From NCBI RefSeq assembly GCF_003334385.1, contig NZ_QOWN01000233.1: a DNA stretch of 201 nt. One strand, given 5' to 3'. The first letter of the stretch is position 1, and every line of letters starts with the position of its first letter. Under the pieces are notes generated by a model that did no database searches, was not told the origin of the DNA, and was given only the letters and a program-made list of their open reading frames with translations. The DNA is from Escherichia coli. Its GTDB lineage: Bacteria > Pseudomonadota > Gammaproteobacteria > Enterobacterales > Enterobacteriaceae. Shown piece by piece: positions 1 to 201 of this stretch. The position numbers and the translations under genes are program-made.

Positions 1-30
1 ACAGTCCGTCACCCCGTGCTCAAAGCGCCG
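1..30 (-). other. Probable N-terminal edge of the NlpC/P60 (C40) peptidase-like domain, with a candidate catalytic Cys encoded at window 1-3 (RRFEHGVTDC)
   Basis: Seen in sequence: minus-strand codons from 28-30 (CGG, Arg) down to 1-3 (TGT, Cys) encode RRFEHGVTDC. Established knowledge: NlpC/P60 enzymes use a Cys-His-His/Asp catalytic core with the Cys near the domain N-terminus, often preceded by Asp. Inference: the domain boundary and the catalytic role of this Cys cannot be confirmed because the rest of the domain, including the His, lies outside the window. Confidence 0.5.
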
Positions 31-201
31 TCCTGTCAGATGTGGCACACAGCGGAATTTGTGAATGTCACCCCGGCTGACCAGCCACCAGGGCAGTGCG
101 CTTTTTATCTGCAGCCGCCGGTCGGCCTCGCTCAGCCAGGGCAGACCACCGGGATGACTGTGGACCAGTGCCACAATCTCCCCCTGCATCTCTGCCCGCA
201 G
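1..201 (-). CDS. Internal fragment (5' and 3' ends both outside window) of a lambda gpK-like phage tail tip assembly protein K: JAB/MPN metallopeptidase-like domain followed by the start of an NlpC/P60 (C40) peptidase-like domain
   Basis: Seen in sequence: the minus-strand frame with codons 201-199, 198-196 and so on has no stop across all 67 codons. Third-codon-position GC is about 70% against about 63% overall, and CTG is the dominant Leu codon (7 times), as in enterobacterial coding sequence. The other two minus frames contain TGA stops. The translation carries the JAMM motif HSHPGGLPWLSEAD and ends in FEHGVTDC. Established knowledge: lambda K-family proteins combine an N-terminal JAB/MPN domain with a C-terminal NlpC/P60 domain. 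Inference: assignment to the K family is from motif and architecture recognition, not from a search. Confidence 0.85.
   Translation of the reverse strand, partial: MRAEMQGEIVALVHSHPGGLPWLSEADRRLQIKSALPWWLVSRGDIHKFRCVPHLTGRRFEHGVTDC
121..162 (-). other. JAMM/MPN+ zinc-coordinating motif H-x-H-x7-S-x2-D (His-Ser-His-Pro-Gly-Gly-Leu-Pro-Trp-Leu-Ser-Glu-Ala-Asp), apparently intact
   Basis: Seen in sequence: minus-strand codons CAC(160-162) AGT CAT(154-156) CCC GGT GGT CTG CCC TGG CTG AGC(130-132) GAG GCC GAC(121-123) give HSHPGGLPWLSEAD. The spacing matches the canonical JAMM signature exactly (two His, seven residues, Ser, two residues, Asp). The preceding residues IVALV (window 163-177) form the hydrophobic strand that usually leads into this motif in JAB domains. 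Confidence 0.8.

What the first reader, a model, noticed from the sequence alone, without database searches (positions are those of the whole stretch)
1..201. Window lies inside a lambdoid phage/prophage tail module (gene K homologue on the minus strand)
The only supportable feature is a fragment of a tail tip assembly protein K-like gene. That places this locus inside a phage or integrated prophage, that is, in accessory, horizontally acquired DNA. From the established lambda gene order (V-G-T-H-M-L-K-I-J), and because K is on the minus strand here, the L homologue should lie at higher coordinates (to the right of this window) and the I and J (tail tip and host-specificity) homologues at lower coordinates (to the left). 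This is well-described biology, not a novel system.
Basis: partly seen in the sequence, partly recalled or inferred. Interest (0 to 1): 0.3.

Follow-up and report, generated by a model that had tools for sequence, protein, structure and literature searches.

The report
Phage lambda-type tail gene K fragment
The window is an ordinary internal piece of a lambda-type phage tail-tip assembly gene (K) sitting in a prophage of an Escherichia coli-type chromosome; this gene occurs in most E. coli genomes and has been described before.

Summary
The finding is confirmed and it is ordinary. The minus-strand frame is open across all 201 bases. It encodes residues 55-121 of a 247-residue homologue of lambda tail tip assembly protein K (91% identical to K of a resequenced lambda). 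Homology is overwhelming: PHROG tail families at E about 1e-35, Pfam Prok-JAB at 1.5e-6 on the fragment, and DNA matches in 223 phage records and 3832 of 5426 complete E. coli genomes.

Substitutions among 37 DNA variants fall mainly on K-frame third codon positions (29 of 45), so the minus strand is the coding strand. The equally open plus-strand frame is a by-product.

The window carries the JAMM zinc-site motif HSHPGGLPWLSEAD and, at its last codon, the NlpC/P60 cysteine. All five of these residues are invariant in 23 homologues.

One such contig continues from the portal gene through the tail fibres to host tRNA-Ser and hyaAB.

The mechanism was predicted in 2006 and reported in a 2025 talk: K clips the ubiquitin-like domain off gpI during tail-tip assembly.

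Nothing here is novel. Whether this prophage is intact was not determined.

The parts
1..201 (-). Internal fragment of the tail tip assembly protein K gene (codons 55-121 of 247); no gene start or end lies in the window
   Evidence: Translation. Exact match placed in the 247-residue ORF at L003 3061-3804. 91% identity to lambda K. Third-position bias of substitutions.
49..201 (-). C-terminal half of the JAB/MPN (Prok-JAB, JAMM) metallopeptidase domain, K residues 55-105
121..162 (-). JAMM zinc-site motif H-x-H-x7-S-x2-D: H68 (160-162), H70 (154-156), S78 (130-132), D81 (121-123)
   Evidence: Read directly from the sequence. All four residues are invariant in 23 homologues of 67-97% identity. 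They align with the HSH...S..D motif of 2KKS and P. furiosus JAMM1.
34..48 (-). Short linker between the two peptidase domains, K residues 106-110
   Evidence: Gap between the two Pfam domain envelopes. Low pLDDT around residues 111-120 of the model.
1..33 (-). First 11 residues of the NlpC/P60 (C40) cysteine peptidase domain, ending with the conserved Cys121 codon TGT at window 1-3
76..78 (-). Codon AGC = Ser96, where at least 90% of homologues (lambda included) have Cys; a minority allele of unknown consequence

Best explanation
The window is the middle of a functional gene K of a lambda-like prophage in an E. coli-type chromosome.

K is a 247-residue, non-structural tail-tip assembly factor made of two peptidase domains. 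The N-terminal domain is a JAB/JAMM zinc isopeptidase; the window holds its zinc-binding HxHx7Sx2D motif. The C-terminal domain is an NlpC/P60 papain-like cysteine peptidase; the window holds its first residues, including the conserved cysteine.

K is expressed from the late operon between L and I. During assembly of the J-I-L-K tail-tip initiator it cuts the N-terminal ubiquitin-like domain off gpI, the product of the next gene. The C-terminal part of gpI is then left as the plug inside the tip, and K itself does not stay in the virion.

Shown here: identity, coding frame, domain architecture, conservation of the catalytic residues, gene order, and location in a prophage.

Taken from the literature or inferred: the cleavage of gpI, the timing of that cleavage, and the absence of K from virions. 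What the NlpC/P60 domain does is still not established.
For: Identity and frame.

Catalytic residues: E19, H68, H70, S78, D81, C121, H187 and H199 are invariant in 23 homologues.

Intact gene: the ORF is 247 residues in 81 of 82 loci.

Synteny: H-M-L-K-I-J in the exact-match loci and in all but one truncated locus of the 84 compared. The downstream gene carries Pfam Lambda_tail_I, the ubiquitin-like domain.

Literature:
- Iyer et al. 2006 predicted that the JAB domain of K releases the ubiquitin-like domain of I (PMC1779556).
- gpK was not detected in lambda virions by mass spectrometry, and only gpI residues 134/135 to 222/223 are seen in the tip (PMC10721106 and PMC12617516).
- A 2025 conference report states that A. 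[quoted passage not shown]
Against: No experiment bears on this particular allele. It carries Ser96 where nearly all relatives have Cys, and the effect of that is unknown.

The gpI-cleavage result is known to me only from a meeting report, not from a primary paper.

The role of the NlpC/P60 domain is unexplained by this model.

The rest of the 45-kb provirus (integrase, regulatory and lysis genes) was not retrieved, so expression and prophage viability are not shown.
Confidence: 0.9

Rival explanations
1. K's main job is to cut another tail protein, for example to process the tape measure gpH into gpH*, rather than (or as well as) gpI.
For: The protease that cleaves gpH is unknown according to PMC12617516. 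K has two peptidase domains, and only one is accounted for by the gpI model.
Against: There is no direct evidence. The conserved K-I adjacency, the occasional K-I fusions, and the JAB/ubiquitin-like pairing all point to gpI. The meeting report names gpI as the substrate.
Confidence: 0.1
2. The JAB domain of K is an anti-defence enzyme. It removes ubiquitin-like proteins that bacterial Bil-type systems attach to the central tail fibre J.
Against: K is required for tail assembly in hosts without Bil systems, so this could only be an extra role. Nothing tested here bears on it.
Confidence: 0.05
3. The NlpC/P60 domain makes K a virion-borne cell-wall hydrolase that opens the peptidoglycan during DNA injection.
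Against: gpK was not detected in lambda virions by mass spectrometry and is not resolved in any tail-tip structure.
Confidence: 0.04
4. The fragment is a decayed remnant of a cryptic prophage and no longer encodes a working protein.
For: Lambdoid remnants are common in E. coli, at a median of 2 and up to 13 K-like copies per genome. A near-identical relative sits in a prophage whose portal gene is frameshifted (L001).
Against: In every contig with the exact window, the K ORF is a complete 247 residues with all catalytic residues, and it is flanked by uninterrupted M, L, I and J genes. The substitution pattern shows purifying selection.
Confidence: 0.03
5. The plus strand, whose frame 1 is also open over the whole window, encodes a protein.
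For: There are 67 open codons on the plus strand, and this frame is open in all but one of its 32 distinct translations among the 37 DNA variants.
Against: No family match. Variation is concentrated on its first codon position (29 of 45 columns), and there are 32 different peptides among 37 variants. The frame is open simply because the K frame uses no TTA, CTA or TCA codons here; the chance expectation is 0.19.
Confidence: 0.01

Closest known systems
Tail tip assembly protein K (gpK) of Escherichia phage lambda
   Same: 91% identical over 245 of 247 residues (61 of 67 in the window). Same length, same two Pfam domains, and same position between L and I in H-M-L-K-I-J.
   Different: A few substitutions in the window: R56Q, I86V, K87Q, A89D, S96C and D99T when read as this allele then lambda. 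The only one at a near-invariant position is Ser96 for Cys. The old lambda reference record annotates K as 199 residues because that record lacks one base.
JAMM/MPN+ deubiquitinases and prokaryotic JAB peptidases (Rpn11, CSN5, BRCC36, P. furiosus JAMM1; Pfam PF14464)
   Different: Only about 20% sequence identity. K's domain is fused to an NlpC/P60 domain, and its reported substrate is a linear fusion (ubiquitin-like domain joined to the gpI body) inside a phage assembly intermediate, not an isopeptide conjugate.
NlpC/P60 (MEROPS C40) DL-endopeptidases such as CwlO, LytE and MepS
   Different: No signal peptide or cell-wall-binding domain is evident. The protein is cytoplasmic, acts in assembly, and is absent from virions. 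Its substrate is unknown and probably not peptidoglycan.
PA0639 of the Pseudomonas F-type pyocin cluster
   Same: Described as a gpK homologue that is absent from mature particles and treated as an assembly factor (bioRxiv 10.64898/2026.02.24.707460).
   Different: It belongs to a tailocin, not a phage. No sequence comparison was made here.

Membership tests
Lambda tail tip assembly protein K family | Full-length sequence similarity to lambda gpK | tested here: met
   222 of 245 residues identical (91%), E = 6e-178, against K of resequenced lambda PV340536. PHROG phrog_30 at 4.1e-161 for the whole protein.
Lambda tail tip assembly protein K family | Two-domain architecture: JAB/MPN followed by NlpC/P60 | tested here: met
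Lambda tail tip assembly protein K family | Gene lies between L and I in the tail-tip block M-L-K-I-J | tested here: met
   Found in the exact-match loci L003 and L088. The genes found follow this order in 83 of the 84 loci compared; one truncated locus was placed as J-L-K-I.
Lambda tail tip assembly protein K family | Required for tail assembly but absent from the virion; cleaves gpI | not testable with these tools
   Literature on lambda only: PMC10721106, PMC12617516, PMC12908700.
JAMM/MPN+ metallopeptidases | Metal-site motif E ... H-x-H-x7-S-x2-D | tested here: met
   E19 lies outside the window. H68, H70, S78 and D81 are at window 121-162. All are invariant in 23 homologues.
JAMM/MPN+ metallopeptidases | MPN fold | tested here: met
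JAMM/MPN+ metallopeptidases | Zinc binding and peptidase activity | not testable with these tools
   Needs biochemistry.
NlpC/P60 (C40) cysteine peptidases | Significant profile match to the domain | tested here: met
   Met for the whole gene. The 67-residue fragment alone gives no NlpC/P60 hit, because only 11 residues of the domain lie in the window.
NlpC/P60 (C40) cysteine peptidases | Conserved catalytic Cys and His residues | tested here: met
   C121 (window 1-3), H187 and H199 are invariant. Their assignment as the catalytic triad is by position in the domain and was not checked residue by residue against a solved enzyme.
Integrated lambdoid prophage | Phage structural genes on both sides of the window, and a junction with host chromosome | tested here: met
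   L088 is 100% identical to the exact-match contig over 10,499 bases. It carries portal, protease, D, E, FI, FII, Z, U, V, G, T, H, M, L, K, I, J and two fibre genes, then tRNA-Ser(UGA), hyaA and hyaB.
Integrated lambdoid prophage | Integrase, attachment sites, and complete regulatory and lysis modules (intact rather than cryptic) | not tested
   Only 10.5 kb of the 45,254-base IMG/VR provirus and 20.7 kb of the assembly were retrieved. The left part was not examined.

The most novel reading that the evidence does not exclude
The JAB domain of K might also strip host-attached ubiquitin-like proteins (Bil-type defence) from the tail tip, in addition to clipping gpI. Gene K, widespread in E. 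coli prophages, would then be a counter-defence gene, and minority alleles such as this Ser96 form could reflect that arms race. Hör et al. already published the idea as a speculation. Nothing found here supports it beyond the fold resemblance to BilC and Cap3.
Probability: 0.04. Interest if true: 0.5.

Novelty: already known. Interest (0 to 1): 0.06.

Why it matters
It matters little beyond annotation. It marks the locus as prophage DNA of the lambda tail-tip module. [quoted passage not shown] The exact protein is already in public databases in dozens of contigs.

Tried and rejected
A 199-base pattern worked.
- The exact pattern found nothing in the one-genome-per-species GTDB collection. No complete RefSeq E. 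coli genome has a 100% match; the best is 99.5%, with one synonymous difference at window position 124. The source was therefore traced through IMG/VR and an exact-protein look-up.
- NCBIfam has no K model; the only hit was a sub-threshold 'desampylase' (JAB) match.
- The PDB holds no K structure. Sequence profile searches reach only small JAB proteins and no NlpC/P60 entry.
- One literature search on 'gpK'/'TAPK' returned mostly noise. The Casjens and Hendrix lambda review was not available.
- Plus-strand coding, an RNA element, a promoter or terminator, and repeats were all considered and rejected.
- I did not walk the rest of the 45-kb provirus, because that would have used all remaining collection scans on a low-value question.

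Full report
**Observation**

The window has 63% G+C. Its minus-strand frame 1 is open for all 67 codons and reads LRAEMQGEIVALVHSHPGGLPWLSEADRRLQIKSALPWWLVSRGDIHKFRCVPHLTGRRFEHGVTDC. Plus-strand frame 1 is open as well. At this composition a 67-codon frame is open by chance with probability 0.12-0.19. The open frame is therefore not evidence in itself.

**Homology**

- The minus-strand peptide matches PHROG tail families phrog_30 and phrog_2635 at E about 1e-35, and phrog_28576 at 5e-44.
- It matches Pfam Prok-JAB at 1.5e-6.
- The plus-strand peptide matches nothing.
- The DNA matches 223 phage records. The listed top hits are 97.5-98.5% identical, and the matched genes are annotated as tail tip assembly protein K or as tail assembly proteins.
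- The DNA also matches 3832 of 5426 complete E. coli genomes, with a median of 2 copies and up to 13 per genome. There the gene is annotated 'C40 family peptidase'.

**Coding strand**

I collected 83 ungapped homologous stretches, which give 37 distinct DNA sequences. Variable columns fall 10, 6 and 29 on K-frame codon positions 1, 2 and 3. The variants yield 14 K-frame peptides but 32 antisense-frame peptides. The plus frame stays open only because the K frame uses no TTA, CTA or TCA codons here. The minus strand is the coding strand.

**Exact source context**

- No complete RefSeq E. coli genome matches perfectly. The best is 99.5%, with one synonymous difference at position 124.
- The species-representative genome collection has no exact match.
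- IMG/VR contig IMGVR_UViG_643348545_000006 (45,254 bases) carries the window exactly, at L003 3223-3423 on the minus strand.
- In that contig the frame belongs to a 247-residue ORF (L003 3061-3804) that starts 10 bases after the stop of L. The window covers residues 55-121.
- The neighbouring ORFs are the tape measure (TIGR01541), M, L (TIGR01600), K, I (Pfam Lambda_tail_I), J (NF049904 lambda_TipJ, 2124 bits) and two tail-fibre genes. All are on one strand and uninterrupted.
- An exact-protein look-up found the same K in at least 24 contigs.
- One of these, CAJSIA010000001.1 (5.2 Mb), is 100% identical to L003 over all 10,499 bases. It shows a full lambda-like morphogenesis block: portal, S49 protease, D, E, FI, FII, Z, U, V, G, T, H, M, L, K, I, J and fibres. 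This is followed by tRNA-Ser(UGA) and hyaA/hyaB, which are 97-98% identical to E. coli.

The locus is thus a lambdoid prophage in an E. coli-type chromosome. In all 84 loci held at that point, the H, M, L, K, I and J genes found lie on one strand, and they follow the order H-M-L-K-I-J in all but one truncated locus, which tblastn placed as J-L-K-I. K is an intact 247-residue ORF in 81 of 82 loci.

**What the window encodes**

The whole protein has Pfam Prok-JAB on residues 3-105 (9.7e-16) and NLPC_P60 on residues 111-224 (2.9e-13). In window coordinates:

| Window bases | K residues | Feature |
|---|---|---|
| 49-201 | 55-105 | C-terminal half of the JAB domain |
| 34-48 | 106-110 | Linker |
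| 1-33 | 111-121 | First 11 residues of the NlpC/P60 domain |

- The JAMM metal-site motif H68-x-H70-x7-S78-x2-D81 lies at bases 121-162. The conserved Cys121 is the last codon, at bases 1-3.
- In an alignment of 23 homologues (67-97% identical; Escherichia, Shigella, Salmonella, Citrobacter, Edwardsiella) these five residues are invariant. So are E19, H187 and H199 outside the window.
- No structure of K itself is in the PDB.

**Mechanism**

- Iyer, Burroughs and Aravind (2006, PMC1779556) noted that K (JAB plus NlpC/P60) sits next to I, whose N-terminus is a ubiquitin-like beta-grasp domain ending in a conserved glycine. They predicted that K releases this domain.
- Cryo-EM and mass-spectrometry studies of lambda found no gpK in virions. 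They resolved only gpI residues 134/135 to 222/223, which form a plug under the C-terminus of gpH (PMC10721106 and PMC12617516).
- A report of an October 2025 meeting states that A. [quoted passage not shown] This enforces stepwise assembly (PMC12908700).

I therefore take this gene to be a transient assembly peptidase that acts on gpI. The identity, architecture, residue conservation and synteny are shown here. The cleavage itself is taken from the literature on lambda and inferred for this 91%-identical allele.

Several questions stay open. The role of the NlpC/P60 domain is unknown. K might also cut gpH, whose protease is unknown. The JAB domain might also counter Bil-type ubiquitin-like conjugation to J, which Hör et al. 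proposed as a speculation.

**Comparison and novelty**

This is an orthologue of lambda gpK, and its exact protein sequence is already in public collections. It meets every family feature that could be tested. The only departure is Ser96, where at least 90% of relatives (lambda included) have Cys. This is a minority allele also seen in a few other prophages, and its significance is unknown. The finding is already known biology and scores low.

**Not settled**

I did not determine whether this prophage is intact. The integrase, attachment sites, immunity genes and lysis genes were not retrieved.

Noticed in passing
L004 (lambda NC_001416) about 5270, i.e. lambda coordinate about 14,270; compare L085 1515-2258: The classic lambda reference (J02459/NC_001416) lacks one base in gene K relative to all relatives. 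The first 45-48 codons of the JAB domain, including the conserved Glu, then fall in another frame, and K is annotated as only 199 residues. Independently sequenced lambdas and lambda hybrids span 202 rather than 201 bases here, and PV340536 annotates a 247-residue K. The 199-residue K is probably an artefact of the old record. Analyses based on it (for example HHpred 'residues 52-182 of 199') miss the JAB domain.
   Followed up: yes
L001 21269-22432 (E. coli 2012EL-2448, NZ_CP027586.1 308573-309736): A porin gene annotated ompC is inserted between tail genes M and L of a prophage whose K is 99.5% identical to the window. Only 2 of 76 loci with both M and L show this gap of about 1.5 kb. It is a cargo gene in an unusual place, inside the tail-tip block.
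   Followed up: partly
window 76-78 (minus strand codon AGC): The window has Ser96 where at least 90% of 23 diverse homologues and lambda have Cys. The difference from BP-4795 is a single base, T versus A, at window position 78.
   Followed up: partly
L088, L089, L091, L092, L093 (K at 10001-10744 or 7860-8603): The identical 201 bases, and the identical K protein, occur in prophages whose other modules differ. L088 has lambda-type head and connector genes. L093 has HK97-type connector genes (HK97-gp10_like, gp17) and a TMP_3/HK97 tape measure. Outside K these loci are only about 95% identical to L003. This is typical lambdoid mosaicism, with exchange points around the tail-tip block.
   Followed up: partly
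Protein hits P0023, P0026, P0030, P0033, P0041, P0043, P0096, P0109, P0110, P0113: Several database proteins join K to L (PF05100) or to I (PF06805) in one polypeptide. Some may be gene-calling or frameshift artefacts. Iyer et al. describe genuine K-I and I-J fusions.
   Followed up: no
One of the 37 variants of the window stretch: A few relatives carry changes in or next to the JAMM motif (HSRPGG, i.e. H70R; HGHP) or a premature change nearby. These suggest occasional inactive copies among the many prophage K genes.
   Followed up: no
L003 3702-4382; L086 10690-11322 versus L087 10741-11322: The start of gene I is called inconsistently, giving 226, 210 or 193 residues. The calls either overlap the end of K by about 50-100 bases or start at the ATGA stop/start overlap. 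The old lambda record uses the long form and the new one the short form.
   Followed up: no
L001 29208-31792: In the closest complete-genome relative, the prophage portal gene is annotated as frameshifted, so that particular prophage may be defective although its tail genes are intact.
   Followed up: no
L088 17440-18091: The prophage end lies within about 570 bases of tRNA-Ser(UGA), next to hyaAB. In related genomes a YkgJ-family gene is annotated twice there, which suggests the attachment site is at or near this tRNA or gene.
   Followed up: partly
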